Shown piece by piece: positions 1,779-53,114 of a stretch of 64,000 nt of DNA. A program made the position numbers and the translations under genes. The DNA is taken from positions 1,424 to 65,423 of IMG/VR virus record IMGVR_UViG_3300043499_000197, one strand, 5' to 3'. The DNA comes from a virus. Lineage: Duplodnaviria; Caudoviricetes. Position 1 is the first letter of the stretch; each line of letters begins with the position of its first letter. The notes beneath the pieces were generated by a model. It made no database searches. It was not told the DNA's origin and saw nothing but the letters and a program-made list of their open reading frames with translations.

Positions 1779-2648
1779 ATGGGCGGTTCAGTCAAGGCCA
1801 CGCCACCGGATCCGGCACTCGCCGAGGCGCAGATCAAGTCCCTCAACTCGCAGGCCCACCTGGGCGAGCGGGCCATGGCCAACGCGGAAGCGATGGCGCC
1901 CACGCAGATGGAGCAGATGCGCTTCGGGCTGGACGCTTCACGCCAAGCCTATCGCCAGACCCAGGAGGATCGCGACTATGCGTTGGGCCGGCGCGGCCAG
2001 TACGACACGGCCGTGGACGCCGTGCTCAAGGACAGCGACAAGTTCGACGAGTCGGTGCGCCGCCAGGAGTTGATGGCGCAGGCCAAGGCCGACATCTCCA
2101 CCCAGTTCAGCGGCGCCCAAGACCAGATGACACGGGGCTTGAACCGCGCCGGCGTTGCGCCGGGCAGTGGCAAAGCCTTGCTCATGCAGCAGTCGGGTGA
2201 ACTGGCTGAAGCGGCGGCCAAGTCCCGCGCCGGGCTCATGGTAACGGAAGCGGCGAAGAAGGAGGGGCTGCAGTTGCGTGGGTCAAACGTGGAGATGCTC
2301 AAGGGGGCACCGGCCGCAGCGGCCAGCCTGACCCCGGCCGCAGCCAACCTGGGCGTGATGGGACTGGACACTGCCAACACCGCGCTCACCGGCATGAACC
2401 AGGGCTTCGGCGAAGCCGGCAAGCAAGTCGGCGCCTACGGCCAGATGGCCGGCGACATGTGGAGCAACCAGAACCGGCTCTACACCGCGGCCGAAGCGGC
2501 CAACGACAAAAGCCGGTCGGAGATGTACGGCGCGGCCACCGGCCTTGCGCTGGGCGGGGCCTACAAGGGCGCTTCGAACTACAACTGGACCGGCAGCGCC
2601 ATGGACAGCACGCGCAAGGGCACCTCGCAAAAGAACCTCTGGGGCTAA
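1779..2648 (+). CDS. Internal virion/DNA ejection protein, paralog 1
   Basis: MGGS...PPDP N-terminus, Ala/Gly/Gln-rich helical composition, paralogous to next gene. Confidence 0.7.
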   Translation: MGGSVKATPPDPALAEAQIKSLNSQAHLGERAMANAEAMAPTQMEQMRFGLDASRQAYRQTQEDRDYALGRRGQYDTAVDAVLKDSDKFDESVRRQELMAQAKADISTQFSGAQDQMTRGLNRAGVAPGSGKALLMQQSGELAEAAAKSRAGLMVTEAAKKEGLQLRGSNVEMLKGAPAAAASLTPAAANLGVMGLDTANTALTGMNQGFGEAGKQVGAYGQMAGDMWSNQNRLYTAAEAANDKSRSEMYGAATGLALGGAYKGASNYNWTGSAMDSTRKGTSQKNLWG

Positions 2649-2651
2649 GCC

Positions 2652-3629
2652 ATGGGCAGCAAATCCTCCGCACCACCCCCGGACCCGCGCCTCGCGCAGG
2701 CCCAGACCCAGGCGCTGAACGCACAGACCCACATCGCGCAGCGCACGATGGACCTGCAAGAGCAGATGATGCCGATGCAGCAGGAGTCGCTGCGCTTCGG
2801 ACTGGAGAGTTCGCGCACCGCCTTCCAGCAGTCCCAGGAAGACCGCCAGTACGCGCTCGGCCAGCGGGCTCGCCTGGACACGGCGATGGACCCGCTGATC
2901 AAGGAAGCCACCGGCTTCAACGAGGGCACGCGGCGCGCCGAGTTGATGGGCCAGACCGATCAGGAGATCAGCCGCAACTTCTCCGAAGCCAAGGGCCAGC
3001 AGGAGCGCGGCCTGACACGCGCCGGCACCACGGTCAACGCCGAGCAGACCGGCGCCATGCAGTCGCAGGCACAGATGGCCGAAGCCAAGGCGCGTTCCTT
3101 TGCGGGCTCGGCGGTCAGCACCGCGGCCAAGCAGGAAGGCGTGCAGGCGCGCGCCAACGCGGTCAACATGCTGGGCGGCTTCGGCCCGATGGCCTCGGGG
3201 CTGGCCACCACCGGCGCGCAGATCGGCAGTCAGGCCACCAACATCGTGAACGCGGGTGCCGCCGGCATGAACTCGGGCCTGTCGGCCGCGGGCCAGATCT
3301 TCCAGCAGATGGGCAAGCAGTCCTCCAGCCTGTGGAACGATCAGGCCCAGGCCAAGTTCGCCGCCGACAAGGCCGCCAGCGACTCGAACTCGGAGACCTG
3401 GGGCGCGGTGATCGGCGCGGTGGCGATGGTGGCCATGAGCGACCGGCGCCTGAAGCGCAACGTGACGCGCGTCGGTCGCACCGCCAAGGGCATTCCGATG
3501 TACCGCTTCCGGTACCTGGGTGGTGACAGCTACCACGTGGGTCCGATGGCCGACGAGGTGGAACAAATTGTGCCGCAAGCCGTGCGCACGATCGCCGGCT
3601 TCAAGGCCGTCGATTACAGCCAGATCTAG
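2652..3629 (+). CDS. Internal virion/ejection protein, paralog 2, with C-terminal peptidase S74 (intramolecular chaperone)-like domain
   Basis: SDRRLKRNV...YRFRY...GPMADEVE...PQAV...VDY motif. Confidence 0.75.
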   Translation: MGSKSSAPPPDPRLAQAQTQALNAQTHIAQRTMDLQEQMMPMQQESLRFGLESSRTAFQQSQEDRQYALGQRARLDTAMDPLIKEATGFNEGTRRAELMGQTDQEISRNFSEAKGQQERGLTRAGTTVNAEQTGAMQSQAQMAEAKARSFAGSAVSTAAKQEGVQARANAVNMLGGFGPMASGLATTGAQIGSQATNIVNAGAAGMNSGLSAAGQIFQQMGKQSSSLWNDQAQAKFAADKAASDSNSETWGAVIGAVAMVAMSDRRLKRNVTRVGRTAKGIPMYRFRYLGGDSYHVGPMADEVEQIVPQAVRTIAGFKAVDYSQI

Positions 3630-5213: not shown

Positions 5214-8200
5214 ATGGCCCTGCTAGACAAGATGCGCCAGCACTATGGCGCGGACCTGTCCGACGAAGAGATCATCACCCGCGCGTCCAAGGACCTGGAC
5301 GTGCCTGTCACGGACATGGCCAAGGAGGTCGGCTACAAGACCGGCGGCAAGTGGGGCAGCGCGGCCAGCGGGGCCGTGGACACCATGCAGTCGCAGGCCT
5401 GGGATGCTGGCGAAGCGGCGGCGCAGGGGTTGGGCTGGGAGGGTGTAGCCAAGTATGCCAAGGGCAAGCGCAAGCAGAACGAAGCGTCTGCCGAGATCGC
5501 GGGCGCCGCCGCCGAAGCGCAGGGCCTCACTACCGACTGGCGTGGCATTCGAGGCGCGGGCGACGTGGGCGAGTTCGTCGGCAGCACGGCGATCGGCTCG
5601 GCGCCGCAGATGGGGGTCGGGCTGGCCGGTGCTGCGGCCGGTGCGGCCATCGGCTCGGTGGTCCCCGTCGTCGGCACCGCCGTGGGCGGCGCGGCGGGCT
5701 ACGCCCTGTCGCAGTTGCCGCTGTACTTCGGCGCCAACCGGCAGGCGCAGCGCGAGCAGACCAAGGACCTGCTGGGCGGCGAGCGGGTGGACGACACCTC
5801 CGCGCTGCTGGCGGCGGGGGGCCAGACGGCGTTGGACATGTTCGGTGGTCCGGTGGGCAGTGCTGTGCGGCGCGGCGGCACGGCGATCGGCCGCAAGCTG
5901 GGACGCGAGGTGCTCAAGGAAGAGGCCGAAGAGGTGGCCGAGACTGGCGCGAAGAAGGCAGGGCGCTCCACGTTCTCGCCTTTGGCGATGGCCAAGGACT
6001 TCGCGGTCGGCGGTATCAAGGAAGGGGCGTACTCCGAGATACCGCAGCAGGTGCTGGAAGAGTACGCGCGCGGTGCCGTGGATTCGAGTCACGACCTGCT
6101 GGGCTCGGAAGCGCAGGGACGCTACATCGGCGCGGCAGCCGGTGCGCTGGCGCTGGGCGGCCCGGTGAACGCCGTGACCGGTGCCATGGGGCGCGCGAAA
6201 GCCAACTCGCGCAGCGACTACGATCCCACCGCTTCCAAGACCGAGGCGCCGGCGACGGTGGCGGGCTCCAAGAATGCACCGGCCGCAGGGCTGACGCCCG
6301 AGATGGTGGGTCCGCCGCGCGAGATGGTCGGACCCACGCGCGCCATGCCCGACGATTCCATCGTGGCGGCGCAGGCTGCAGGGACGGTGAAAGAGGTGCT
6401 CGGAACTCCGTCCGAAGCCAGGATCGACGCGAACGCGCCGCCGGCACCGCCGACACCCGAGCAGACGGCGGCCGACAAACGCGCAGCCGGCATCGCGAGC
6501 GAGAAGGCAGCCCTGGCCGCGCGCAGCGAGAAGGCAGCGGCCGATGGTGTCGATCCGAAGTACGTGCTGGAACACGCGGCGCTGGAGGGTGCGCTGAGCG
6601 AAGGCTTGATCAGCGAGGCCGAGGAGCAGCGGGCCGTGGCAGCGCTGGCGACGGGCGAGCCGGCCCTGGTGGCCGAGACCAAGAAGCTGGTGGCCGAGAT
6701 CGAGAAGGAACACGCCACCCGCCAGCAAGCGCCTGTCCCGAAAGTGGCGGGCCTGTCGCCGGGCCGCAGCGCCCTGGCCGCGTTCACCCACAAGGAGACC
6801 GGCAAGCCGATGTCCGAGCAGGCGCGCGACCGTGCCTACCTGATCCTGGGCCTGGACGAAGAGGGCCACCCGGTGGGCGACCCGCTGACGCTGCAGGACG
6901 TGGCCGAGATCGAGCACCGCGTGCAAGGCAAGACGGGTCCGGTGCCCGACAACAAGAAAGCCTTGAAGGCCATCAGCAAGCAACTCAACGAGTTCGGCCT
7001 GGACGCGGAGGCTCGCCGTGCGCTGTACAAGCAGATCCACGGCGAGGACATGCCGCTCGAAGGCAACGTCACTGCCGAAGGCGACGCGGCGCTGCAGGAG
7101 GGCGAGGAGGTCGAGGTCGAGCCGGAGCACCGGGACCGTGTCACCGACAGCGACGAGTCCGAACTGCAAGGCGCCATCGGAACGCACGACACGCGGATCG
7201 GCGCGGAGGATGTGGGCGACACCGGCTCCATGCGTCTGGTGGGCAGCGCCAACCAGAACGTGGCCGTCGAGGAAATCACCAGCGAGCAGCGCGCCGACGT
7301 GCTCAGCAGCCTGATCGCCGGGCCGGGCTACAACGATGCGCAAAAGGAAGCCTTCAAGCAGGCACTGGGCAGCGGCAAGACGCTGGGCAGCGAAGCCGGC
7401 GCGAAGAAGCTGCTGGCCGACACGGCCAACTTCAACGAGGATGAACTCAAGGCGCTGGGGGTCCTGTTCGAGCACGGCAAGACCACCAAGGCGGCAGCCG
7501 GCCGGCGTGCCCGCGTGGAAGCCGTGGTTGCCCGGCTGACCGGCGAGATGACCGAGCACGAGCGGCAGGTGCGCGAGCGCCAACAGGCGGCGAACAATGC
7601 GCGGCTGGCCCAGGAAGAGTTGAAGCGTGCCGAACTCAAGGCCCAGCAGGAAGGCGGCCTGGAAGACCTGGATGCGCGCCTGGACGAGGACGGCCGCACG
7701 CTGCGCATGCACCTGATGCTGAAAACGGGCGAGTTCGAGACGGCCGAAGAGCGCGAAGAGCGCCGGGCTGCAGGCCGCATGTCCCGGCAAGAGCGCTTGA
7801 TCGGCGAGTCGCTGGCAGATGCCAAGGCGACCTACGCGCGACTGTTCGCGGACCATGCCAAGGAGAAAGACCCGAACGACCACCTGCCGCCGTGGGATGA
7901 ACTCACGCCGCGCGAGCAGGCGGCGTTCGTACGCATGGTGGACTACCAGAACTTCGAGAGCCGGGACCCTGAGCACGTCGCGCAGGGCAAGATCGCCGGC
8001 AAGGCGTACGAAGCGCAGGAGGGCCATGCCCAGCGCACGGCCGCCGCCAAGCGCGAAGCCGAGAAGGCGGTCGCCAAAGCGATGCCTGAGTTCCAGGCCG
8101 AAGTGAAGAAGACCTACGAGGCCGAGACCCAAGCCGAGACCCAGCGCATCATCGAAGAGTCAAAGGCCCGCTCGCAGCAGCGCAAGGAAAAGCTCACGCT

Positions 8201-11200
8201 CAAGGCCAAGCCGAAGGCCGAGCCCCCGGCTGCACCCGCGCCGGCCCCCCAGGAGAAACCCAGTGGCCAACAAGCAAGTCCCGAAAGTGTCAGTCCCCCG
8301 AAGCCCGAGCCCGTCGAAGCTAAAGCCGCCCCGCGAGTCCATCGACGAGCAAGTAAGCCGGCTGTCCAAGCAGTGGTCGGAGGCGGAACTGCAACTGCTG
8401 GAAAAGAAGTATCCAAAGGCAGTGCACGCGGTGCGCCTGACGCAACTGCAAGAGCGCCACATGGACCCGGACCAGTTCGCGGTGAGGATGGCCAAGCTGC
8501 GCCAGCCGCCAGCACCGAAGGGGACCGTGCCGATGTAGCTGCAGACGACGGCTTCTGGGACCGTGCCGGCCCTACGGGGCCGACCGAAGAAGAGCAAGCG
8601 CGTGCCGTGCTGGGCGATGTGCCGATGGAGCGCGAGTACGACGAGAACACCAGTTGGTCGGCGGTCATCCCGCTGCAGAAGAAAGAGAAGCAGGCCGAAG
8701 ACGACGTGATGGTCGGCGCCGGCAACAACTGGATTCCGTTCGAGAAGGCCAAGGAACTGGCGGCCAAGTACCTGAGCGCGCGCCAGTTGAAGATGCCGTT
8801 CCAGTACCAGCACATGCTGGGCATCGCGGCGCGCGACTGGGAGCGCATGATCCAGGCGATGACCGGCCTGACGACCCGGGAAGCACTGGAGGGCAAGGCG
8901 GCCGTCGCACCGGCGGCCAAGGAATCGGAGTATGCCGCTGCGGCTTCGTCGTTCATGGAAGACAACTCGTCGGTCGAGCCGGACGACTTCGCCGACCCGG
9001 TGAAGCTGGAAAACGGCAAGTACATGAACGCGCCCGATCTGGCGCAAGCGGTCGTCCTGTCGCTGCCGGCCGAGGAGCACACCGACCCTGATGCCTACGC
9101 CAAGCTGGGCATCCTGCCCGAGGGCCGCGCCGAGGTGCTGAGCGCGGTGAACGAGTTGCTGGCATCGCCGCAGTTCCAGAACGTCGAGCGGCTGAACGCG
9201 GCGCGCGACGAGTCGCCGGCCCCACTGACCGTCACGGCGTCCGCCGGCACGCAAGTCGAAGGGGGCGTTCCTCGCGCCCCTTCCGTGACGCGGGTGGTGA
9301 GGAGGGCGCGCACCGGGCTCGACGAGGGCACGCTGACGCCGGAACAGTTCGCTGCCCAGGCCACGGCCGCGCTCGATGCGGCCGACGCGGCGCGCGAGAG
9401 CAAGCCGCGCGTGGGCAAGCTGCGCGGCGCCGACCGCATCATGGAGATGCTGCTGGCCGCGCGCCGGCGCGGCGAACTCGATGCCGAAGGTGTCGAGATG
9501 GCGATGTGGTTCATCCGCCAGAACCCGGCCGCGGTGGACAACCTGGGCATCAGCATCCGCGCGGCCGGCGAGAACGAGGCGGGCACCTCGGGCTACTACA
9601 ACCCGGTGGCCCGGATCGTCACGCTGATCAAGGGCTCGCTCAACACCGAGACCGCGGTGCACGAGATCCTGCACCACCTCGAACGCATGATGCCGCGCAA
9701 CCTGCAGAACGCCATCCGGCGCACCTGGGCCAAGAGCTTGGCCAAGGCCTACAAGGCGGCGCAGAAGGCCGGCAACGAGAACCTCACCGCTTATTACAAA
9801 GCGCTGATGGACTACCACTTCGACAACGGCCGGACTGCGCTGCTGGACAAGGCGCTGGACATGCTGCACTCGGGGGCCGTGGGCTACGAGCACTACCAGC
9901 ACTTCAACCCGAGCGAGTTTTGGGCCATCAACGGCAGCCGCATCGTGGCCGGGCGCTTCGGCGTCTCGGGCTCGGTCGTCGGGCGCATCCGCCAGTACCT
10001 GGGCGAGTTCGTGCAGAAGGTGAAGTCGGTGCTGGGCCTGAAGTCGGACGCTTCGATCATCCGTGCGCTCAACTCGGTGGCCCGCGCGGACGGCACCTTC
10101 ACCAGCGGCCTGATGCTGCAGGACCAGCCCGGCGTGCACTTCATGTACGCGGGCCAGAAGACCGCCGACCAGGAGCAACTTAACCAACTGAACCGCTACC
10201 ACTGGATGCGCGCGACGGGCGAGACCACGGCCGCGCAGGCGCGGGTGGCCACCGGGTGGTTCCGCAACCCGATCGACGGCGAGATGCGCTACGAGATCGC
10301 CGACCACGATGCCGAGTTCACCACGGCGCGCCCGCCCGAGCGCATGGTGCTCACGCAGCGCGGCCAGAAGCCGGTCACCTACCGGCTGGACGAGGTGCTG
10401 ATCCATCCGGCGCTGTTCGAAGCCTACCCGGAGGCGCGCCAGATCCTGGTGTCGCGCCAGGACGATCCGAACCCGACGGTGCAGGGCTGGTTCAACCCGG
10501 ACCAGAACATGGTGGTCTTCACGCCGCGCGCGGACAACCCGCTGTCCACGCTGGTGCACGAACTGCAGCACTGGGTGCAAACCCAGGAAGGTTTCGCGGT
10601 GGGCGGCTCGCCCGAAGAGGTGACGCACGCCATGAGCCCGGAGCAGCGCGTGCGCCTGTACCTGCGCGCCAGTGCCGAGATGGCCAAGCCCGGCTACCAG
10701 TCGCACCTGGAGGAATCCGACCGCCAGCGCCTGGAGATCCTGCTGGCCGGCAACCTGGAGCCCGACCCCGATGCGCTGGCACTGTATGCGGCCGGCACCG
10801 CGGCGCTGCAGCGCGCCTACCTGCACATCGCCGGCGAGATCGAGGCGCGCGACACGCAGGCCCGCCTGCAGATGACGCCCACGCAGCGCGACGAGACCAC
10901 ACCGCTCACCAGCGAGAAGATCGGCCTGAAGGATGTGGTGACGATCCGGGGCGCTGCGGGGACAGCGAAGTCGGTGGAGGGTGGTGTCTCGCGGCGCAAC
11001 GTGCTGCTGGGCGCGCTCGCCTCGGCGGCTGGGGTGCGGGCCAACGCGGCCACCGACACGCTCGTGCAGGGGAAAGCCCAGCCCATCAACCCCCAGTCGT
11101 GGGGTGCCAAGATCTCGCCGGCGGCGGAAAAGCTGCTGCGGGCGGGCGACCTGCGTGGCGCTATTGCGCAGATCGCCGAAGGGGCTCGCGACCCACGCAT

Positions 11201-14200
11201 CGCGCAACTGGCCACCCAGATCTATCTCAAGATGGGCGAGGGCAACGGCAAGCTGAAGACGCGCGTGGACGACAAGGGCGGCAGCGCCAACCACGCGGAG
11301 GTGAAGATCACGCCGCAGGGGCCGACCGCCACCTTCTACACGGCCAAGGGAGCGCGCGGCCTGTCCACCGACACCGTGCTGCACGAGGCGCTGCACGTGG
11401 TCTCGCTGTCGGCTTACTACGACGTGACGGCCGCGGCCAAGGCCGGCAACGCGGCGGCGACCAAGGCCGTGAGCGAGATGTACGGCTTGTGGAACGAGTT
11501 CGAGACCGCGGCGCAGAAGGCCGGCATGGGCAAGGGGCTAGACCTGGAGACGCGCAGTTCGATCCGGGAGTCGATCGAGAGCATGGACGAGTTTTTCGTG
11601 CGCGCGCTCACCGACCCGGCGCTGCAGAAGTTCATGGCCACCGTCCCCTACGAGGGCAAGACGCTGTGGGACCACTTCAAGGACTGGGTGCGCAAGACGC
11701 TCACCGGCAAAGCCGGCATCCAACCCAGTTGGCTGGACGCGGCCACGCTGGGCTCCGAGCGTTTCCTCGAAGCGCAAGGCCCGCAGATGGCTGCGTGGCA
11801 CCAGCAGGCCATGGGCGGCGCCAAGCAACTCAACTCGGCCCGCGCACAGAATATCGAGGCGGTCAGGCGGGCGGCGGTGGAGCGCGTGCCGGCACGGGCG
11901 CGCCCGGCCGTGGACACCATGAGCCGCATGATCGGCAACTCCACCAAGAGCCTGATCAAGGGCCTCACCTTCACGCGCGACCTGCTGCAGATGGCCGAGC
12001 GCGGCCTGGGGCAGGCGGCTGCGGACTACCTGCGGCTGGAAGAAGGGCGCAACGCAACGAAGATCGCCCACCTGCATGCGGCCGACGTGGTCGTGGCCGC
12101 GCACAAGAAGCTGTCGGTGGCCGAGCGTGCCGGCGTCAACGCCTACCTGAAGAAGTCCACCATGGAAGCCAAGTGGGGCTACCGGCCGGACCACTTCAGT
12201 GCCGAAGACAAGGCCAAGGTGAAGGTGGACCCGGCGCTGGAAGCGATCTGGAAAAACACGCTGAACGACGCCCAGCGCGCGGTCGTGAAAGAGGTGTTCA
12301 AGCACGGCCACGAGACGCTGACGACGATGAAGACGCTGGTGAACCTGAACGTGGCCGCCGAGTTCCAGGCCGCCATCGCGCAGGCCCGCGCGGCCAACGA
12401 CGACAAGGGGGCCGACAAGCTGCAGGCCGACATGGACGACCAGTTGGCCCACTTCAAGACGCTGCTGGCGGTGGGCGAGTACCACCCGTACGCGCCGCTC
12501 AAGCGCTTCGGCAACCACGTGGTGGTCGGCAAGTCGCAGCGCTACATGGATGCCGAAGCGGCGCTCGAAGCCAACGCTGACGACAAGGCCGCGCGCAAGG
12601 CGCTGCGCGAGATGCAGTCCAACGCCGACCATTACTACGTGTCGATGCACGAGACCCAGCACGAGGCGCAGCAGGAGCGCGACCGCATCGCCGGGCAGTA
12701 CGACCAAGCCGACACGATGGAGAAGGACCGCGGCTACCTGAACGAGGTGGGCGGCAACCGGGGCATGATGGGCATGTTCCACCGGCTGCGCGGGCAGGCC
12801 GAGCGCGAGGGTGGCAACTTGGACAAGAAGGCCCAGCAGGCCACCGACCGCCTGCTGACCGACCTGTACCTGTCGCTGCTGTCGGAGACCAGCGCACGCC
12901 AGTCCGAGCGCGAGCGCAAGAACGTGGCCGGCGCCGACGAGGACATGATGCGGGCCTTCCATTCCAAGGGCCGCGCGGACGCCAACTTCCTCGCCTCGCT
13001 GGCCACCGGCGGCGCGATGCAGGACGCGCTCAATGCGATGGAGAAGGAAGCCGGGCGCAACGGCATGGTGAACGGCACCACGCGCGAAGAGCGCCATGCG
13101 CACTACAGGGAAATCCTGTCGCGCCACGTCATGGGCATGGACTACAAGCAGAGCCCGGCGGTGGATGCCGCGCTGAAAGCCTCCTCGGTCATGCAACTGC
13201 TGACCAACCCGGCCTACCACCTGACCAACCTGCTGCAGCCCTATGTCATGAGCGTGCCGACGCTGGCCGGGCGCTTCGGCATGGTGAAGTCGATGGGCGC
13301 GATGATGGCCGCGCACCGCGAACTGGGCGGGCGGCTGTTCAAGAACGGCGTCGATCATTCGTCGATCGAGGACCTGCCCAGCGATGTGCGCAAGGGCATC
13401 CAGGCGCTGATGGACAAGGGCCTGATCAACATGAGCCTGGACAGCGAGCACGGTGGCGAGTGGAACGAAGGCAAGCTGGGCAAGCCGATCGGCTGGCTGA
13501 AGCGCGTCTCCGAGCGCATCGAGGCGGTGAACCGGGTGGCCACGGGGGTGGCGGCGCTGCGGCTGGCAGACAAGGCCGGCCTGAGCGAGCAGGCGGCTGT
13601 TAACTACGCGGCCAAGATCATCTACGACACGCACGGCGACTACTCGGGCTTCAACACCCCCAGCCTGATGCGCGCTCCGGTGGCGCGCCTGATCACGCAG
13701 TACCGCAAGTTCCAGTTGATCCAGCTTCACAACTACACGCGCATGGTGCGCGACGGCTTCCTGCGTGCCGACCTGAGCAAGGAAGAGAAGTGGGTGGCCA
13801 GGAAGGCGCTGGCGTACAACCTCTCGACCATGTTCGCGCTCGGCGGGACCCTGGCGCTTCCCGGTGCGCAGGCCGTGGGTGCGATCCTGCGCGCCATCTT
13901 CGGCGATGACGACGAGCCCGACGATCCCGAACTGACGATGCGCAAGTACTTGGCCGACGCCGGGCTCGAAGGCATCTCCGACCTGCTGGTGAAAGGGGTG
14001 CCGGCGTGGCTGGGCGTGGATGTGTCGGGCCGGCTGGGTGCGGGCAACATCGCCTCGCTGTTCCCGTACGCCGACATCAGCGACAAGGGCAAGAGCAGTC
14101 TGGTCTCGCGCAAGGCGTTCGAGGCGTACGCGCTGGCGGCCACCGGCCCCTTCATCGGCGGGCTCGCGCCCAAGCTGGCGGACGGCTTGCACGACTGGTC

Positions 14201-14693
14201 CAACGGCGATCCATACAAGGGCACCGAGAAGCTGATGCCCAGCGGCCTGGGCAACATGCTCAAGGGAGCCCGCATCGCCACCCAGGGCGTGACGATGAAG
14301 AGCGGCGACACCGTGATGGACGCCGATCAGGTCGGCTTCCTGGCCGGACTGGGACAGGCCGTGGGCCTGCCGACCACCACCGTCACCGAGCGCGGCCAGC
14401 GCGGGCAGGCGCTGCGCAACATGGACCTGTTCTACAAGGACAAGGTGTCGCAGATCAAGCGCGAGTATGTGCAGGCGTACCGGGACGGCGACGCGGAGAA
14501 GCTGGCCGAGGCCCGTGCGGACTGGGCCGAGGTCGGCCAGCGCATGAAGGCGCACGACCTGCAGCCGCCCAAGGTGAGCGACCTCGTGAAGGCGCCGCAC
14601 GCGCAGGCGAAGAAGGACAAGAGCCTGATCGAAGGGGTGCAGACCAGCAAGCGCACGGCCGGCGCAGCGCGCCAGTTGGCCGAACTCTACTAA
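5214..14693 (+). CDS. Giant polyvalent internal virion protein (3159 aa): LPD23-like, three HExxH metallopeptidase-like motifs, PLxRFG and helical C-terminal domain
   Basis: TGWFRNPIDGEMRYEIAD (~10250); VHEILH (~9657), VHELQH (~10554), LHEALH (~11379); YAPLKRFG (~12490); last gene of ejection cluster. Confidence 0.85.
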   Translation: MALLDKMRQHYGADLSDEEIITRASKDLDVPVTDMAKEVGYKTGGKWGSAASGAVDTMQSQAWDAGEAAAQGLGWEGVAKYAKGKRKQNEASAEIAGAAAEAQGLTTDWRGIRGAGDVGEFVGSTAIGSAPQMGVGLAGAAAGAAIGSVVPVVGTAVGGAAGYALSQLPLYFGANRQAQREQTKDLLGGERVDDTSALLAAGGQTALDMFGGPVGSAVRRGGTAIGRKLGREVLKEEAEEVAETGAKKAGRSTFSPLAMAKDFAVGGIKEGAYSEIPQQVLEEYARGAVDSSHDLLGSEAQGRYIGAAAGALALGGPVNAVTGAMGRAKANSRSDYDPTASKTEAPATVAGSKNAPAAGLTPEMVGPPREMVGPTRAMPDDSIVAAQAAGTVKEVLGTPSEARIDANAPPAPPTPEQTAADKRAAGIASEKAALAARSEKAAADGVDPKYVLEHAALEGALSEGLISEAEEQRAVAALATGEPALVAETKKLVAEIEKEHATRQQAPVPKVAGLSPGRSALAAFTHKETGKPMSEQARDRAYLILGLDEEGHPVGDPLTLQDVAEIEHRVQGKTGPVPDNKKALKAISKQLNEFGLDAEARRALYKQIHGEDMPLEGNVTAEGDAALQEGEEVEVEPEHRDRVTDSDESELQGAIGTHDTRIGAEDVGDTGSMRLVGSANQNVAVEEITSEQRADVLSSLIAGPGYNDAQKEAFKQALGSGKTLGSEAGAKKLLADTANFNEDELKALGVLFEHGKTTKAAAGRRARVEAVVARLTGEMTEHERQVRERQQAANNARLAQEELKRAELKAQQEGGLEDLDARLDEDGRTLRMHLMLKTGEFETAEEREERRAAGRMSRQERLIGESLADAKATYARLFADHAKEKDPNDHLPPWDELTPREQAAFVRMVDYQNFESRDPEHVAQGKIAGKAYEAQEGHAQRTAAAKREAEKAVAKAMPEFQAEVKKTYEAETQAETQRIIEESKARSQQRKEKLTLKAKPKAEPPAAPAPAPQEKPSGQQASPESVSPPKPEPVEAKAAPRVHRRASKPAVQAVVGGGTATAGKEVSKGSARGAPDATARAPHGPGPVRGEDGQAAPAASTEGDRADVAADDGFWDRAGPTGPTEEEQARAVLGDVPMEREYDENTSWSAVIPLQKKEKQAEDDVMVGAGNNWIPFEKAKELAAKYLSARQLKMPFQYQHMLGIAARDWERMIQAMTGLTTREALEGKAAVAPAAKESEYAAAASSFMEDNSSVEPDDFADPVKLENGKYMNAPDLAQAVVLSLPAEEHTDPDAYAKLGILPEGRAEVLSAVNELLASPQFQNVERLNAARDESPAPLTVTASAGTQVEGGVPRAPSVTRVVRRARTGLDEGTLTPEQFAAQATAALDAADAARESKPRVGKLRGADRIMEMLLAARRRGELDAEGVEMAMWFIRQNPAAVDNLGISIRAAGENEAGTSGYYNPVARIVTLIKGSLNTETAVHEILHHLERMMPRNLQNAIRRTWAKSLAKAYKAAQKAGNENLTAYYKALMDYHFDNGRTALLDKALDMLHSGAVGYEHYQHFNPSEFWAINGSRIVAGRFGVSGSVVGRIRQYLGEFVQKVKSVLGLKSDASIIRALNSVARADGTFTSGLMLQDQPGVHFMYAGQKTADQEQLNQLNRYHWMRATGETTAAQARVATGWFRNPIDGEMRYEIADHDAEFTTARPPERMVLTQRGQKPVTYRLDEVLIHPALFEAYPEARQILVSRQDDPNPTVQGWFNPDQNMVVFTPRADNPLSTLVHELQHWVQTQEGFAVGGSPEEVTHAMSPEQRVRLYLRASAEMAKPGYQSHLEESDRQRLEILLAGNLEPDPDALALYAAGTAALQRAYLHIAGEIEARDTQARLQMTPTQRDETTPLTSEKIGLKDVVTIRGAAGTAKSVEGGVSRRNVLLGALASAAGVRANAATDTLVQGKAQPINPQSWGAKISPAAEKLLRAGDLRGAIAQIAEGARDPRIAQLATQIYLKMGEGNGKLKTRVDDKGGSANHAEVKITPQGPTATFYTAKGARGLSTDTVLHEALHVVSLSAYYDVTAAAKAGNAAATKAVSEMYGLWNEFETAAQKAGMGKGLDLETRSSIRESIESMDEFFVRALTDPALQKFMATVPYEGKTLWDHFKDWVRKTLTGKAGIQPSWLDAATLGSERFLEAQGPQMAAWHQQAMGGAKQLNSARAQNIEAVRRAAVERVPARARPAVDTMSRMIGNSTKSLIKGLTFTRDLLQMAERGLGQAAADYLRLEEGRNATKIAHLHAADVVVAAHKKLSVAERAGVNAYLKKSTMEAKWGYRPDHFSAEDKAKVKVDPALEAIWKNTLNDAQRAVVKEVFKHGHETLTTMKTLVNLNVAAEFQAAIAQARAANDDKGADKLQADMDDQLAHFKTLLAVGEYHPYAPLKRFGNHVVVGKSQRYMDAEAALEANADDKAARKALREMQSNADHYYVSMHETQHEAQQERDRIAGQYDQADTMEKDRGYLNEVGGNRGMMGMFHRLRGQAEREGGNLDKKAQQATDRLLTDLYLSLLSETSARQSERERKNVAGADEDMMRAFHSKGRADANFLASLATGGAMQDALNAMEKEAGRNGMVNGTTREERHAHYREILSRHVMGMDYKQSPAVDAALKASSVMQLLTNPAYHLTNLLQPYVMSVPTLAGRFGMVKSMGAMMAAHRELGGRLFKNGVDHSSIEDLPSDVRKGIQALMDKGLINMSLDSEHGGEWNEGKLGKPIGWLKRVSERIEAVNRVATGVAALRLADKAGLSEQAAVNYAAKIIYDTHGDYSGFNTPSLMRAPVARLITQYRKFQLIQLHNYTRMVRDGFLRADLSKEEKWVARKALAYNLSTMFALGGTLALPGAQAVGAILRAIFGDDDEPDDPELTMRKYLADAGLEGISDLLVKGVPAWLGVDVSGRLGAGNIASLFPYADISDKGKSSLVSRKAFEAYALAATGPFIGGLAPKLADGLHDWSNGDPYKGTEKLMPSGLGNMLKGARIATQGVTMKSGDTVMDADQVGFLAGLGQAVGLPTTTVTERGQRGQALRNMDLFYKDKVSQIKREYVQAYRDGDAEKLAEARADWAEVGQRMKAHDLQPPKVSDLVKAPHAQAKKDKSLIEGVQTSKRTAGAARQLAELY
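8263..8538 (+). CDS. Nested +1-frame small basic protein (91 aa) inside the giant gene
   Basis: AGGAG at 8251-8255, GTG start; GC3 bias switches to this frame over its length. Confidence 0.6.
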   Translation: MANKQVPKVSVPRSPSPSKLKPPRESIDEQVSRLSKQWSEAELQLLEKKYPKAVHAVRLTQLQERHMDPDQFAVRMAKLRQPPAPKGTVPM

Positions 14694-48532: not shown

Positions 48533-50884
48533 ATGGCCACCGCAATCGGACTGCCCGCACCCCCCAACCGATTCGGAACGCCCGACATGCTGCGCTCCGG
48601 GGCGCCGGTGAGTGCCGGGATGCCAAGCACCGCGCGCTTCGGTTCCGGCCAGATGGGACCGGGCGGGCCGGTCGGCGGCGGCCAGATCTCCTCCGGCGGC
48701 GGGCCGGTGGCGCCGGTCGCCGGTCCCAATCCGTTCGGGCCGAATGTGCGCATCGGCCAGCCGGCCTACTCGGGCACCGTGAACGGATTGATCCCGGTCA
48801 GGAACCTGACGGCGATCCTGGACGGCGAGAAGAAGGCGGCGGCCGACCGCGCCTATGCGGCCAACAACACCACCACGGTCTTGAGTCTGGTGCAACTGAT
48901 CAGGAAGCACTGGCAGATGGCGAAAGACGCCAAGCAGGTGGTCGAGCGCAAGATGATCGACGCCATGCGCGCCAAGAGCGGCGAGTACTCGCCGGGCAAG
49001 CTGCAGCAGTTGCGCCAGCAAGGGTCCTCCGAGATCTACATGATGGTGTTCTCGACCAAGGCCCGGCAGGCCAAGGCCCTGATCGGCGACGTCATGCTGG
49101 GCACCGCCGACGACAAGCCCTGGACCATCCAGCCGACGCCCGACCCGGAGATCCCGCAGGACGTGGTCGAGGTGATCCTGAAAGCCACCACCGATGTCGT
49201 GGCGCAAGCCGAGATGGCCGGCGTGCCGATGACGCCCGACGAGATCCGCCTGGGCCTAAGAGAGGTGAAGGACGCAACCAAGGCAATGGTGCTGGAGGAG
49301 GCGCGCCAGCGGTGTGAACGTGCCGAGGTCAAGATCGAGGACCTGCTGGCCGAGGGCGGCTTCATAGGGGCACTGGACAACTTCATCGACGACCTGACCA
49401 CCTTCAAGACGGCGTTCCTGAAGGGGCCGATCGTCAGGAAGCGCGGCGCGCTGAAGTGGGAGGCCCAGCCGGACGGCACCTCGATTCCCGTCGCCACCTT
49501 CCAGAACCTGCCGGACTGGGAGCGCGCCGACCCGCTCATGATGTACCCGGCACCCTGGGCCAGGAACGTGCAGGACGGCTTTCTGATTGAACGCCACCGG
49601 CTGTCTCCTTCGGCGCTGAGCGACATGATCGGGGTCGAAGGATACAACGAGGACGCGATCCGGCAGGTGCTGGACCAGTACGCGCAGAACGGCTTGCGCG
49701 AGTGGCTGCAGGTGGACATGGACCGTCTCGCGGCCGAGAACCGCATGTACTCCAGCATGCAGAACCAGTCCGACCTGATCGACGCGCTGCAGTACTGGGG
49801 GCAGGTGACGGGGAAGCTGTTGCGGGAATGGGGCATGACGCCCGAGCAGGTGCCCGACGAAGCGAAGGTCTACGACGTCGAGTGCTGGCTGATCGGCAGT
49901 TGGGTGATCAAGGCGGTGATCAACGCCGACCCGCTCGCGCGCCGGCCTTACTTCGCCCAGTCCTTCGAGCCGATCCCGGGCGCCTTCTGGGGCAACAGCC
50001 TGTACGACAAGATGCGCGATGTCGAGGACATGTGCAACGCCGCGGCACGCGCGCTCAGCAACAACATGGGGATCGCCTCCGGGCCGCAGGTGTGGGTGAA
50101 CAATGACCGCTTGCCGCCGGGGGAGGACATCACGACTCTCTACCCGTGGAAGATCTGGCAGACCACCTCCGATCCCATGGGCGTGGCGCAGCCCCCGGTG
50201 GGCTTCTTCCAGCCGAACTCCAACGCCAACGAACTGATGGCGGTGTTCGACAAATTCTCGATCCTGGCTGACGAGTACACCGGCATCCCGCGCTACATGG
50301 CCGGCGTCGGCGGCGGTGCCGGCGAGGCCGGGCGAACAGCTTCGGGGATGTCGATGATGATCGGCAACGCCAACAAGACGATCAAGAGCGTGATCTCCAA
50401 CATCGACAAGACGGTGATCGCGCCGCTGGTGACCAATGCGTATCAATATGTCATGCGTTACGTGGGCGATAAAGACTGCAAGGGCGATCTGCAAGTTGTG
50501 GCTCGTGGCGCCCTCTCGCTGGTGACCAAGGATGCGGCGCAGGTGCGCAGGAACGAGTTCCTGCAAGCCACGGCCAATCCGATCGACATGCAGATCATCG
50601 GCCTCGACGGCCGAGCCTCGCTGCTGCGCGAGAGCGCCAAGGCGCTGGATATGAACACTGACAAGATCGTGCCGAGCCCAACCACACTGGCCATGAAGGC
50701 GAAGGTGCAGGCGATGCAGGCACAAATGGCCCAAGGCGCCACCGGCCCGGGTGGCGGCATGGGTCCGGCCGCAGCGCCGCAAGGCCCTCCAGTGGTGGGC
50801 CGGCCCGCGCCCGCGGCGCCCGGAGGCGGCCGCCAACTCGATCATGCGCAAGGTCCGGTGACCGAATCCTTTCAAAATTCATAG
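48533..50884 (+). CDS. Portal protein
   Basis: Follows TerL; 783 aa; PGAFWGNSL, ASGPQV, TASGMSMM motifs of podovirus portals. Confidence 0.85.
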   Translation: MATAIGLPAPPNRFGTPDMLRSGAPVSAGMPSTARFGSGQMGPGGPVGGGQISSGGGPVAPVAGPNPFGPNVRIGQPAYSGTVNGLIPVRNLTAILDGEKKAAADRAYAANNTTTVLSLVQLIRKHWQMAKDAKQVVERKMIDAMRAKSGEYSPGKLQQLRQQGSSEIYMMVFSTKARQAKALIGDVMLGTADDKPWTIQPTPDPEIPQDVVEVILKATTDVVAQAEMAGVPMTPDEIRLGLREVKDATKAMVLEEARQRCERAEVKIEDLLAEGGFIGALDNFIDDLTTFKTAFLKGPIVRKRGALKWEAQPDGTSIPVATFQNLPDWERADPLMMYPAPWARNVQDGFLIERHRLSPSALSDMIGVEGYNEDAIRQVLDQYAQNGLREWLQVDMDRLAAENRMYSSMQNQSDLIDALQYWGQVTGKLLREWGMTPEQVPDEAKVYDVECWLIGSWVIKAVINADPLARRPYFAQSFEPIPGAFWGNSLYDKMRDVEDMCNAAARALSNNMGIASGPQVWVNNDRLPPGEDITTLYPWKIWQTTSDPMGVAQPPVGFFQPNSNANELMAVFDKFSILADEYTGIPRYMAGVGGGAGEAGRTASGMSMMIGNANKTIKSVISNIDKTVIAPLVTNAYQYVMRYVGDKDCKGDLQVVARGALSLVTKDAAQVRRNEFLQATANPIDMQIIGLDGRASLLRESAKALDMNTDKIVPSPTTLAMKAKVQAMQAQMAQGATGPGGGMGPAAAPQGPPVVGRPAPAAPGGGRQLDHAQGPVTESFQNS

Positions 50885-52118: not shown

Positions 52119-53114
52119 ATGGCCACCATCACCCCTGCTGCCGTCTTTCCGGTAGCCGCACCCTACAACACCACGCCCCCGTACTCGGGCACGTTCATCC
52201 CGACCATCTGGTCGGCCAAGATGAACGCGAAGTTCTACGCCGCCTCGATCTATGGCGACATTTCCAACAACGATTGGGAAGGCGAGATCGCCAACATGGG
52301 CGACAAGGTGATCATCAACACCGCGCCCACCATCACGATCAGGAACTACGTGGTCGGCGCGGGCCTGACCTACGAGGTGCCGGCACCCCAGACGCAGGAA
52401 CTGGTGGTGGACAAGGGCAAGTACTTTGCCTTCCAGGTCAACGACGTGCTGGCCTATCAGGCGCAGCCCAACCTGATCGACGTCTTCAGCGAGGACGCGG
52501 CGCAGCAGATGCGCATCTCGATCGACTCGGCGGTCACCTACGGCGTCTTCAACAAGGCCGACGCGGCCAACATGGGCGCCACCGCCGGTGCCAAGAGCGG
52601 CCTCTACAACCTGGGCACCGACGCCGTGCCGGTCACGCTGACAGCGGCCAACGTGCTGCAGAAGATCCTGGAACTGGCCAGCGTGCTGGACGAGCAGAAC
52701 ATCCCGGACAGCGGGCGCTGGGTCGTGATCGACCCCTTCACGCGCCAGTTGCTGCTGCAGTCGCCGATCGCGCAGGCCTACTTCACGGGCGACGCCACTT
52801 CGCCGGTGCGCAACGGCCTGATCGGCATGATCGACCGCTTCAAGGTCTACGTGACGAACCAGTTGCCCAAGGGCGCCGCGGCCTCGCCGTGGGTCTCGGG
52901 CGATGGCACCGAGAACTCGATCGCCAGTCCCACGGGCGTCAAGCGCCGCGCGATCATGGCCGGCCACATGAGTGCGCTGACCTTCGCCGCTTCGATCACC
53001 AAGCTGGAAACGATCCGCAACCCCACGGACTTCGGCGACTACATCCGCGGCCTGAACGTGTACGGCTTCGGCGCCCCGGCACCCAAAGGGCTGGCCCTCC
53101 TGGTGGCGGCCTGA
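52119..53114 (+). CDS. Major capsid protein
   Basis: FIPTIWS, WEGEI..GDKV.I, LDEQNIP..GRW, F.DYIRGL.VYG. Confidence 0.9.
   Translation: MATITPAAVFPVAAPYNTTPPYSGTFIPTIWSAKMNAKFYAASIYGDISNNDWEGEIANMGDKVIINTAPTITIRNYVVGAGLTYEVPAPQTQELVVDKGKYFAFQVNDVLAYQAQPNLIDVFSEDAAQQMRISIDSAVTYGVFNKADAANMGATAGAKSGLYNLGTDAVPVTLTAANVLQKILELASVLDEQNIPDSGRWVVIDPFTRQLLLQSPIAQAYFTGDATSPVRNGLIGMIDRFKVYVTNQLPKGAAASPWVSGDGTENSIASPTGVKRRAIMAGHMSALTFAASITKLETIRNPTDFGDYIRGLNVYGFGAPAPKGLALLVAA

What the first reader, a model, noticed from the sequence alone, without database searches (positions are those of the whole stretch)
8251..8538. Overprinted gene hidden inside the giant virion protein
Seen: AGGAG, a 7-nt spacer and GTG open a 91-codon +1-frame ORF (MANKQVPK...SIDEQVSRLSKQWSEAELQLLEKKYPKAVHAVRL...). 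Over this span the host frame shows atypical codons (CAA GCA AGT, CAT CGA CGA) and low-complexity protein. The +1 frame has genome-typical codons (CTG, AAG, GAC, TTC) and an amphipathic helix. Inference: a real second protein, perhaps a chaperone or inhibitor for the giant protein's peptidase modules, encoded within it.
Basis: partly seen in the sequence, partly recalled or inferred. Interest (0 to 1): 0.8.

Follow-up and report, generated by a model that had tools for sequence, protein, structure and literature searches.

The report
Conserved small gene inside giant ORF
A 91-codon gene for a small, basic, helical protein with relatives in other metagenomes lies in a shifted reading frame inside a phage's 3,159-codon virion-protein gene, and the big gene appears to read across it only as a floppy spacer.

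Summary
The window is a 65-kb, 65-68% GC uncultured phage record. Its 3,159-codon ORF (5214-14693) loses all coding signature over 8334-8540: GC3 falls from 0.89 to 0.37, and the 69-codon log-odds is -90 against +135 ± 28 elsewhere (z = -8). The +1 frame takes that signature on, and it is the only one of six frames with a positive score.

It is not an assembly error. Contigs from four studies show the same letters at both frame junctions. The only two strain differences are synonymous in +1 and non-synonymous in frame 0.

The +1 ORF (AGGAG, 7 nt, GTG 8263, TAG 8536-8538) has ten small homologues (60-103 aa, 33-77% identity). Each starts with its own Met, and nine of the ten end at the same alignment column; the tenth carries a short insert before a similar end. 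None lies in-frame within a large protein.

So a real small gene is very likely. The direction is the reverse of "overprinting". The small gene's frame looks ancestral. The giant frame stays open passively, because only 1 of 91 small-gene codons ends in T, and it reads as a spacer with no hydrophobic residues.

Function is unknown: no family or fold match was found, and the chaperone/inhibitor idea is untested. Expression, and the genomic context of the homologues, could not be checked.

The parts
5214..14693 (+). Giant ORF (3,159 codons, frame 0), the host of the nested gene. It is a polyvalent-type phage virion protein with a C-terminal PLxRFG ('tail-700') domain at aa 2470-3139 and LPD23 at aa 1644-1702.
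   Evidence: ORF, translation. NF032893, 291.7 bits against a cut-off of 100. PF18838 LPD23, 33.2 bits against 27. PHROG hits to giant proteins including 'DarB-like antirestriction', with neighbouring ORFs hitting 'virion structural protein'; the source's gene caller called exactly this 3,159-aa protein.
8251..8255 (+). AGGAG Shine-Dalgarno-like motif, 7 nt upstream of the GTG start.
   Evidence: genes with good coding scores in the window use AGGAG with 5-8 nt spacers (starts 647, 3639, 48533, 52119, 54487, 58004). The motif alone is common (102 sites).
8263..8538 (+). Nested small gene 'X' in the +1 frame: GTG start, 91 codons, TAG stop. The predicted protein is 10.4 kDa with pI 10.2.
   Evidence: Homologues of 60-103 aa.
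8263..8333 (+). Pro/Ser/Lys-rich basic N-terminal tail of X (aa 1-24; 6 K+R, 0 D+E). Here both frames are low-complexity and the coding signal is ambiguous, slightly favouring frame 0.
   Evidence: the cumulative log-odds rises 125.7 to 135.2 over 8262-8331; homologues have tails of like composition and variable length; charge counts; pLDDT about 48-49.
8334..8535 (+). Conserved helical core of X (aa 25-91), with helices at aa 27-37, 40-49, 51-64 and 69-80. The +1 frame alone carries the coding signature here.
   Evidence: the log-odds peaks at 8331 and bottoms at 8541, a drop of 92 bits.; 14 invariant columns, all within aa 39-79. AlphaFold2 mean pLDDT 67, and 76-81 over aa 31-80.
8334..8540 (+). 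Frame-0 reading of the same DNA: a 69-residue Gly/Ala/Pro/Arg/Val-rich stretch with none of L, I, M, F, Y, W, N or C. It is taken to be a passive spacer in the giant protein.
   Evidence: composition, z = -8.1; only 1 of 91 X codons ends in T, so frame 0 can hardly acquire a stop; the equivalent frame is stop-free in 73% of 92-codon windows of the giant ORF.
8541..8606 (+). Flat, ambiguous stretch after the X stop. The clear frame-0 coding signal resumes at about 8607-8625, where the first frame-0 start codons after X lie (GTG 8607, GTG 8619, ATG 8625), none with an evident SD.
   Evidence: sequence.

Best explanation
A genuine small gene (X, 8263-8538) lies wholly inside the giant virion-protein ORF, on the same strand in the +1 frame.

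Inferred mechanism of expression: ribosomes start internally at GTG 8263, guided by AGGAG 7 nt upstream. They make a 91-aa, 10.4-kDa, pI-10 protein with a disordered Pro/Ser/Lys tail and a four-helix core.

The giant protein is still made as one chain. Frame 0 has no stop, and no credible restart follows X. Over X it reads the DNA as a 69-residue spacer without hydrophobic residues, between modules. That spacer is not selected for. It stays open because GC3-rich codons almost never end in T.

X's frame is the older reading. The nested layout most likely arose when an X cassette, or a module with X attached, was recombined in frame into a tolerant linker of the giant gene.

Function of X (inferred, weak): a small basic helical binding protein, for nucleic acid or for a partner protein, made together with the virion or ejected proteins.
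For: Shown:
1. Only the +1 frame has the genome's coding signature over 8334-8540 (z = -8.1 for frame 0).
2. An exhaustive HMMER search of 1.84 billion representatives gave 7 hits at E <= 0.001. Three are small proteins of 89, 72 and 80 aa, with E-values of 3.9e-32, 1.4e-14 and 1e-05, aligned over most of their length.
3. The word-indexed search added four more small proteins of 86-103 aa.
4. In the 11-sequence alignment every homologue has its own Met start. Nine of the ten end at the same column as X, and the tenth (P0023) has an eight-residue insert before a similar end. Replacements are conservative and 14 columns are invariant.
5. One homologue starts M-A-S-K-V-P-K, next to the window's (GTG)-A-N-K-Q-V-P-K. 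This supports GTG 8263 as the start.
6. No large protein carries the X core in-frame. The four longer hits (272-400 aa) match only a 23-46-residue repeat motif.
7. The sequence is real. A 13.9-kb contig of the likely source sample is identical over 7400-9400. Contigs of three other studies cover the two junctions with no indel.
8. The only two differences in 8133-8886 in the second study are 8436 C>T and 8451 A>G. Both are third positions of the +1 frame and synonymous there (CGC>CGT, CAA>CAG). In frame 0 they give Pro>Ser and Arg>Gly.
9. Frame 0 is passively open.
10. In 42 of 46 distant relatives the conserved downstream domain lies in one ORF with at least 732 codons upstream, so a single giant protein is the family norm. 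None of the 46 shows a comparable frame switch, so X is a lineage-specific addition.

The rule that the frame closer to genome codon usage is the ancestral one comes from passages of PMC8227390.
Against: - There are no expression data of any kind. No RNA run was listed.
- AGGAG plus a start codon is common by chance.
- Only two substitutions bear on present-day selection. My rough estimate is that about one random change in four is synonymous in a given frame, so p is about 0.06.
- The DNA context of every homologue is unknown (searches found no locus). I therefore cannot say whether they are nested or free-standing, and dN/dS could not be computed.
- The homologues come from short contigs (546-3,884 bp). 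On such contigs a gene caller could prefer X even if a longer frame ran across it.
- X has no family, fold or atlas match, so the proposed function is a guess.
- The structure model is only moderate (pLDDT 67, pTM 0.43).
Confidence: 0.62

Rival explanations
1. Silent passenger. The X segment is a recently captured gene, or piece of foreign DNA, that landed in frame in a linker of the giant gene. It is no longer translated on its own; only the giant protein is made. The coding signature and intact ORF persist because the capture is recent.
For: No expression evidence. The SD-plus-start combination is frequent by chance. The segment is lineage-specific among 46 relatives. The near-identity of the segment among four studies leaves little variation with which to show selection.
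Against: The ORF is complete, with a start that has an SD at typical spacing. Its stop falls at the same alignment column as in nine of the ten homologues; the tenth (P0023) has an eight-residue insert before a similar end. The start is not the ancestral ATG but a GTG five codons upstream, matching the N-terminus of one homologue. That looks like maintenance rather than decay. The 2 of 2 substitutions are synonymous in +1.
Confidence: 0.15
2. Frame-shifted stretch of the giant protein. The X peptide is really part of the giant polypeptide. The apparent frame change would be due to two compensating indels (sequencing or assembly errors, or real mutations) or to programmed ribosomal frameshifts.
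For: The frame-0 text across X looks like out-of-frame junk. Homopolymer runs lie near both junctions (a C run just before the AGGAG, GGGG at 8520-8523). One homologue has a sub-threshold hit to a polyvalent-protein domain (LPD22, 15.7 bits against a cut-off of 28.6).
Against: Contigs from four studies, built independently of the record, show no indel at either junction. Each homologue has its own Met, and nine of the ten stop at the same alignment column as X. That would be a coincidence if X were an internal domain. No large protein among 1.84 billion representatives holds the X core in-frame. The conserved TAG would have to be bypassed. I saw no slippery heptamer near either junction, by eye only. 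The LPD22 hit occurs in 1 of 4 members scanned.
Confidence: 0.06
3. Three separate genes. The 'giant ORF' is two proteins (A up to about 8260, B from about 8607-8625) with an ordinary small gene between them, and frame 0 merely happens to be open.
For: The frame-0 coding signal is flat over 8541-8606 and rises again exactly at the first frame-0 start codons. Frame 0 being open across X carries no information.
Against: Frame 0 has no stop anywhere between 5214 and 14693. Ribosomes translating A must therefore run on through X into B. No SD-like motif precedes 8607, 8619 or 8625 (by eye). Relatives have a single giant ORF.
Confidence: 0.04
4. Chance ORF of a GC-rich genome, with no biological meaning.
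For: Long spurious ORFs abound in this window: alternative-frame ORFs of 774-1,143 codons overlap the giant ORF.
Against: z = -8.1 for the frame switch. Homologues reach E = 3.9e-32.
Confidence: 0.01

Closest known systems
Lambda Rz/Rz1 embedded spanin genes (passages of PMC6139136 read)
   Same: A small gene lies wholly inside a larger phage gene, on the same strand in the +1 frame, with its own start. Gene callers usually miss it. Here too the source annotation has only the big ORF.
   Different: X has no Cys and so no lipobox, and it is not in a lysis cassette. In Rz/Rz1 both products are functional partners and both frames are constrained. Here the host frame shows no constraint at all across the overlap. 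The host gene is 35 times longer than the insert.
Hepatitis B virus polymerase 'spacer' over the surface gene, as hypothesised in the review PMC8227390 (passages read)
   Same: A long multidomain protein reads across an older, shorter gene in another frame. That stretch serves as a spacer between its domains. The genealogy is inferred from a sliding-window codon-usage analysis, as done here.
   Different: This is a double-stranded DNA tailed phage, not a compact 3-kb genome under compression. The overlap is 276 nt in a 9.5-kb gene. The arrangement is specific to one lineage among 46 relatives.
phiX174 D/E and other 'internal overlaps' born by overprinting (PMC8227390)
   Same: An internal same-strand overlap.
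   Different: In classical overprinting the nested frame is the new one. It lacks homologues and has atypical codon usage. Here the nested frame has the homologues and the typical codon usage.
Polyvalent proteins of phages and conjugative elements (Iyer et al. 2017, PMC5512222; passages read)
   Same: The host ORF carries LPD23 and has a giant multi-module layout. Such proteins shuffle modules joined by linkers.
   Different: The passages found hold no mention of frameshifts or overlapping genes; both terms have 0 occurrences in the main text. X itself is not a recognised LPD.
Myb/SANT-like helix motif (PF00249)
   Same: X shares a short W/Y/F-S-E-x-x-L-x-x-L-x-x-K-Y-P motif with repeat proteins, one of which (P0005) passes Pfam Myb_DNA-binding (30 bits against 24.4).
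   Different: None of the four family members scanned (X, P0003, P0004, P0006) hits PF00249, even at E <= 10. The W is replaced by Y, F or L in 7 of 11 members. No fold match was found.

Membership tests
Embedded (nested) same-strand gene, Rz1-type architecture | The whole ORF lies inside another ORF on the same strand in a different frame | tested here: met
   8263-8538 lies within 5214-14693, in the +1 frame.
Embedded (nested) same-strand gene, Rz1-type architecture | Own translation start with a ribosome-binding site | tested here: met
   AGGAG, 7 nt, GTG. The spacing is like that of genes with good coding scores in the window. The motif alone is not rare.
Embedded (nested) same-strand gene, Rz1-type architecture | The nested frame is under protein-level selection | tested here: met
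   Ten homologues at 33-77% identity, each with its own Met start and nine ending at the same alignment column; 14 invariant columns. The 2 of 2 strain changes are synonymous. dN/dS was not computable because no homologue DNA was available.
Embedded (nested) same-strand gene, Rz1-type architecture | Both products are actually made | not testable with these tools
   No RNA run was listed. No proteomics.
o-spanin (Rz1) | Lipoprotein signal with a lipobox Cys | tested here: not met
   X contains no Cys.
Gene born by overprinting (de novo nested frame) | The nested frame has codon usage further from the genome than the host frame, and lacks homologues | tested here: not met
   The reverse holds: +1 LLR is +42.1 against -73.2 for frame 0, and the nested frame has homologues.
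Myb/SANT DNA-binding domain (PF00249) | Pfam match at the gathering score | tested here: not met
   No hit for 4 of 4 members scanned at E <= 10.
LPD22 (PF18834) | Pfam match at the gathering score | tested here: not met
   1 of 4 members, 15.7 bits against a cut-off of 28.6.
Programmed frameshift or compensated indels within one protein | The peptide of the shifted frame occurs in-frame in relatives' long proteins; indel variation or a slippery site at the junctions | tested here: not met
   No long protein holds the X core. No indel at the junctions in contigs of four studies. No slippery heptamer seen, by eye only.
Group I/II intron or other known RNA element in the giant gene | Rfam match | tested here: not met
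   0 matches at E <= 1 over 7800-9000.
PLxRFG-domain giant phage protein (NF032893), host gene | NCBIfam match above the cut-off | tested here: met
   291.7 bits against 100, aa 2470-3139.

The most novel reading that the evidence does not exclude
X belongs to a family of small mobile 'passenger' genes that settle in the linkers of giant polyvalent virion-protein genes. They are tolerated because GC3-rich coding leaves the -1 frame free of stops. Their product works with the giant protein, for example packaged or ejected with it, or controlling its processing. Giant ORF linkers would then be landing pads for new phage genes, and a big protein's spacer could be born by reading across an older gene.
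Probability: 0.12. Interest if true: 0.7.

Novelty: new member of a known kind. Interest (0 to 1): 0.5.

Why it matters
Standard gene callers annotated only the giant ORF, so a conserved protein family is invisible in the record.

The case gives a clean example, open to statistical test, of a nested gene in a tailed phage in which the nested frame is the older one. The host gene simply reads across it as a spacer. This is the reverse of textbook overprinting and resembles the model proposed for the hepatitis B polymerase spacer.

It also shows how a GC-rich codon bias makes such captures nearly free of cost. If confirmed, frame-wise codon scans of giant phage ORFs could uncover more hidden genes. 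The X family (basic tail plus four helices, no known relatives) would be a new small phage protein to characterise.

Tried and rejected
- DNA of relatives. The search for related loci with X, or with the X family alignment, found nothing in viral contigs, metagenome contigs or genome contigs.
- Flanks of X. The upstream 500 aa gave nothing in viral contigs. The downstream 244 aa gave nothing in metagenome contigs. blastn and tblastn against cultured phages found no match.
- Distant relatives. The 46 viral loci found with the downstream 400 aa match only from the peptidase-like domain onward. They have no similarity to X or its flanks (no hit below E = 0.24).
- Protein searches of the flanks. 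These gave only distant hits at 33-41% identity and about 39% coverage, or nothing. One search scored only the 8,000 candidates sharing most words, and the query has a low-complexity stretch, so it may have missed relatives.
- Consequence. Whether the homologues of X are nested could not be settled, and dN/dS could not be computed.
- Function. Pfam, PHROGs, NCBIfam, PDB sequence profile, Foldseek against PDB and BFVD, and the ESM Atlas gave no usable hit for X.
- Other scans. No sigma-70-like promoter and one terminator-like site, fewer than in shuffles. No Rfam family. No paralogue of X in the window; the best other match had E = 0.073.
- Short direct repeats near the X stop. Considered as insertion scars, but by my rough estimate they are compatible with chance.
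- RNA. No RNA holder was listed, so nothing can be said on expression.
- Contig coverage. X4 and X5 contigs cover only parts of X: 8147-8297 and 8413-8618 for X4, 8260-8410 and 8512-8662 for X5, at depth 2-3.7.
- Complex prediction was not used. I claim no binding partner.
- Papers. PMC5512222, PMC8227390 and PMC6139136 were read as passages found by term. The other papers were seen only in search listings. Supplements were not requested.
- "Not in print". This was searched only through. No paper on a nested gene in a PLxRFG or polyvalent giant phage gene appeared in those listings.
Full report
WHAT THE WINDOW IS. The window is bases 1424-65423 of a 65,423-bp IMG/VR virus record rated complete, with 61-68% GC. 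It has a portal or head-tail adaptor hit at 48533-50884 and a major head protein hit at 52119-53114. Two paralogous 'virion structural protein' genes lie just upstream of the giant ORF.

The giant ORF 5214-14693 encodes 3,159 aa.
- It carries Pfam LPD23 at aa 1644-1702.
- It carries the NCBIfam PLxRFG 'tail-700' domain at aa 2470-3139 (291.7 bits, cut-off 100).
- It matches PHROGs made of giant phage proteins, one labelled DarB-like.

Three HExxH motifs are visible in the translation. No peptidase family was matched, so 'peptidase modules' remains a reading of motifs.

CHECK OF THE OBSERVATION. AGGAG (8251-8255), a 7-nt spacer, GTG (8263) and TAG (8536-8538) bound a 91-codon ORF in the +1 frame. 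GTG 8263 is the first start codon in a +1 frame that is open from 8107.

The frame anomaly:
- Host-frame GC3 falls from about 0.87 to 0.31-0.41, while the position that is third in the +1 frame rises to 0.8-0.9.
- A codon log-likelihood trained on the rest of the giant ORF gives frame 0 as coding up to about 8250. It is ambiguous over 8220-8330, gives +1 as coding over 8310-8535, is ambiguous to about 8580, then gives frame 0 again.
- The cumulative log-odds peaks at 8331 and bottoms at 8541, right after the TAG, a fall of 92 bits.
- The 69-codon window 8334-8540 scores -89.9. The 2,888 other windows have mean +135.0, sd 27.8 and minimum +56.9 (z = -8.1).
- Only +1 of the six frames is positive, and this is the only switch in the giant ORF.

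Two things are not special. AGGAG followed by a start codon occurs at 41 of 102 AGGAG sites. An open +1 frame of this length occurs in 10.6% of windows.

IS THE SEQUENCE REAL? Yes.
- A 13,897-bp Logan contig from the probable source sample matches 7400-9400 with 0 differences and 0 gaps. It is not independent as a sample, but it is an independent assembly.
- A second study (X3) covers 7794-8886 in two contigs with no indel after 8083.
- A third (X4) and fourth (X5) study cover both junction regions without any difference, at low depth.

Assembly or sequencing indels are thus excluded as the cause of the frame change.

In X3 the only differences in 8133-8886 are 8436 C>T and 8451 A>G. Read, both are third positions of +1 codons and synonymous there (Arg, Gln). 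Both change the frame-0 residue (Pro>Ser, Arg>Gly). Two of two is weak evidence (my rough p is about 0.06), but it points the right way.

IS THE +1 FRAME A PROTEIN? HMMER against 1.84 billion representatives found 7 proteins at E <= 0.001.
- Three are small: 89 aa (75% identity, E 3.9e-32), 72 aa (58%, 1.4e-14) and 80 aa (41%, 1e-05). They align over most of their length.
- Four are repeat proteins of 272-400 aa that share only a 23-46-residue motif.

A profile search among proteins of 39-160 aa added four more small members of 86-103 aa. Cluster look-ups added three variants.

In the 11-row alignment:
- Every homologue starts with its own Met.
- Nine of the ten end at the same column as X. 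The tenth, P0023, has an eight-residue insert before a similar end.
- 14 columns are invariant and replacements are conservative.
- The N-terminal tails differ in length but share a Pro/Ser/Lys-rich make-up.
- One member begins M-A-S-K-V-P-K, next to the window's (GTG)-A-N-K-Q-V-P-K. This supports the GTG as the start.

No large protein contains the core in-frame. This is hard to reconcile with X being an internal domain of the giant protein or a chance ORF.

HOW THE GIANT FRAME GETS ACROSS. Only 1 of 91 X codons ends in T. A stop in frame 0 needs a T-ending X codon followed by AA, AG or GA. Frame 0 is therefore open almost by necessity. In the giant ORF as a whole, the equivalent frame has 13 stops in 3,159 codons and is stop-free in 73% of 92-codon windows.

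The frame-0 text across the X core has none of L, I, M, F, Y, W, N or C in 69 residues. It is enriched in G, A, P, R and V, which fits an unstructured spacer.

Frame 0 has no stop from 5214 to 14693. The first frame-0 start codons after X (8607, 8619, 8625) have no evident SD (by eye). The downstream two-thirds of the protein can therefore only be made by reading through.

In 42 of 46 distant relatives the homologous downstream domain sits in one ORF with at least 732 codons upstream. Two more are cut by contig ends, and two have 25 and 476 codons upstream. None of the 46 has a comparable frame switch: their minimum 60-codon log-odds runs from -11 to +62, against -72 in the window. One giant protein is the family norm, and X is an addition in this lineage.

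DIRECTION OF THE OVERLAP. Two criteria are set out in the review PMC8227390 (passages): the ancestral frame has codon usage closer to the genome, and it has the wider spread of homologues. By both, the small gene is the older reading. The giant ORF's spacer is the derived one.

It resembles the model in that review for the hepatitis B polymerase spacer lying over the surface gene. Architecturally it matches the embedded +1 Rz1-in-Rz layout (PMC6139136). That paper also notes that gene callers miss such genes. Here too the source annotation holds the 3,159-aa protein but not X.

The most economical origin is inferred, not shown: illegitimate recombination placed an X cassette, or a module with X attached, into a tolerant linker. 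My rough estimate is that about one insertion in four would keep frame 0 intact (1/3 for phase times 0.73 for no stop). A sharp change of strain divergence at about 8133 in X3 (19 substitutions and 14 gap positions in 7794-8132, against 2 substitutions in 8133-8886) shows that this neighbourhood is mosaic.

WHAT X DOES. Unknown.
- The protein is 10.4 kDa with pI 10.2. Its tail has 6 basic and 0 acidic residues.
- AlphaFold2 with the 11-row alignment gives four helices at moderate confidence (pLDDT 67, pTM 0.43).
- Nothing matched in Pfam, PHROGs, NCBIfam, PDB (by sequence and by fold), BFVD or the ESM Atlas.
- A short motif shared with Myb-like repeat proteins is a lead only. X fails the Pfam test.

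My working guess is a small basic binding protein made along with the virion or ejected proteins. I give it about 0.3 among possible functions.

LIMITS.
- There are no expression data.
- No DNA for any homologue was obtainable, so their context and dN/dS are unknown.
- The homologues sit on contigs of 546-3,884 bp. There a gene caller could pick X even if a longer frame crossed it.

VERDICT. A real, conserved small gene nested in the giant ORF is the best reading (0.62). Rivals are a silent captured passenger (0.15), a frame-shifted part of the giant protein (0.06), three separate genes (0.04) and chance (0.01). It is a new member of a known kind, an embedded same-strand gene, with the unusual feature that the nested frame is the older one. 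Interest 0.5.

Noticed in passing
window 8038-8132: In the second study's strain (X3) this 95-nt stretch of the giant ORF is dense with substitutions and seven small indels that sum to zero, so the frame is kept. From 8133 to 8886 there are only two substitutions. This looks like a mosaic or recombination boundary about 130 nt upstream of X.
   Followed up: partly
window 8529 -> 8792: One X3 contig (depth 5, 36 letters on the shorter side) joins 8529 to 8792, skipping 262 nt, which is not a multiple of 3. It may come from another organism or from a short repeat. Unexplained.
   Followed up: no
window 7718 -> 7794: One X3 contig replaces 75 nt of the giant ORF with 24 other letters, a length difference of 51 that keeps the frame. 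This is another sign of module-level variation in the gene.
   Followed up: no
window 8521-8532 / 8557-8568 and 8527-8539 / 8619-8631: There is an exact 12-nt direct repeat 36 nt apart straddling the X stop. A 12-of-13 repeat also links the X stop region to the first frame-0 ATG after X (V-P-M-stop against V-P-M-E). These could be recombination scars or chance.
   Followed up: partly
window 1779-2648 and 2652-3629: Two adjacent ORFs both hit the same PHROG (phrog_8003, virion structural protein). They look like a tandem duplicate pair just upstream of the giant gene.
   Followed up: no
window 5214-14693, other frames and strand: Very long spurious ORFs (774 to 1,143 codons) overlap the giant ORF in other frames and on the minus strand. 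This is typical of GC3-rich coding and is a warning that ORF length alone means nothing in this genome.
   Followed up: yes
window 9000-9101: A weak frame-0 similarity of the giant protein to X aa 43-73 (38% over 34 aa, E = 0.073). It is probably noise.
   Followed up: no
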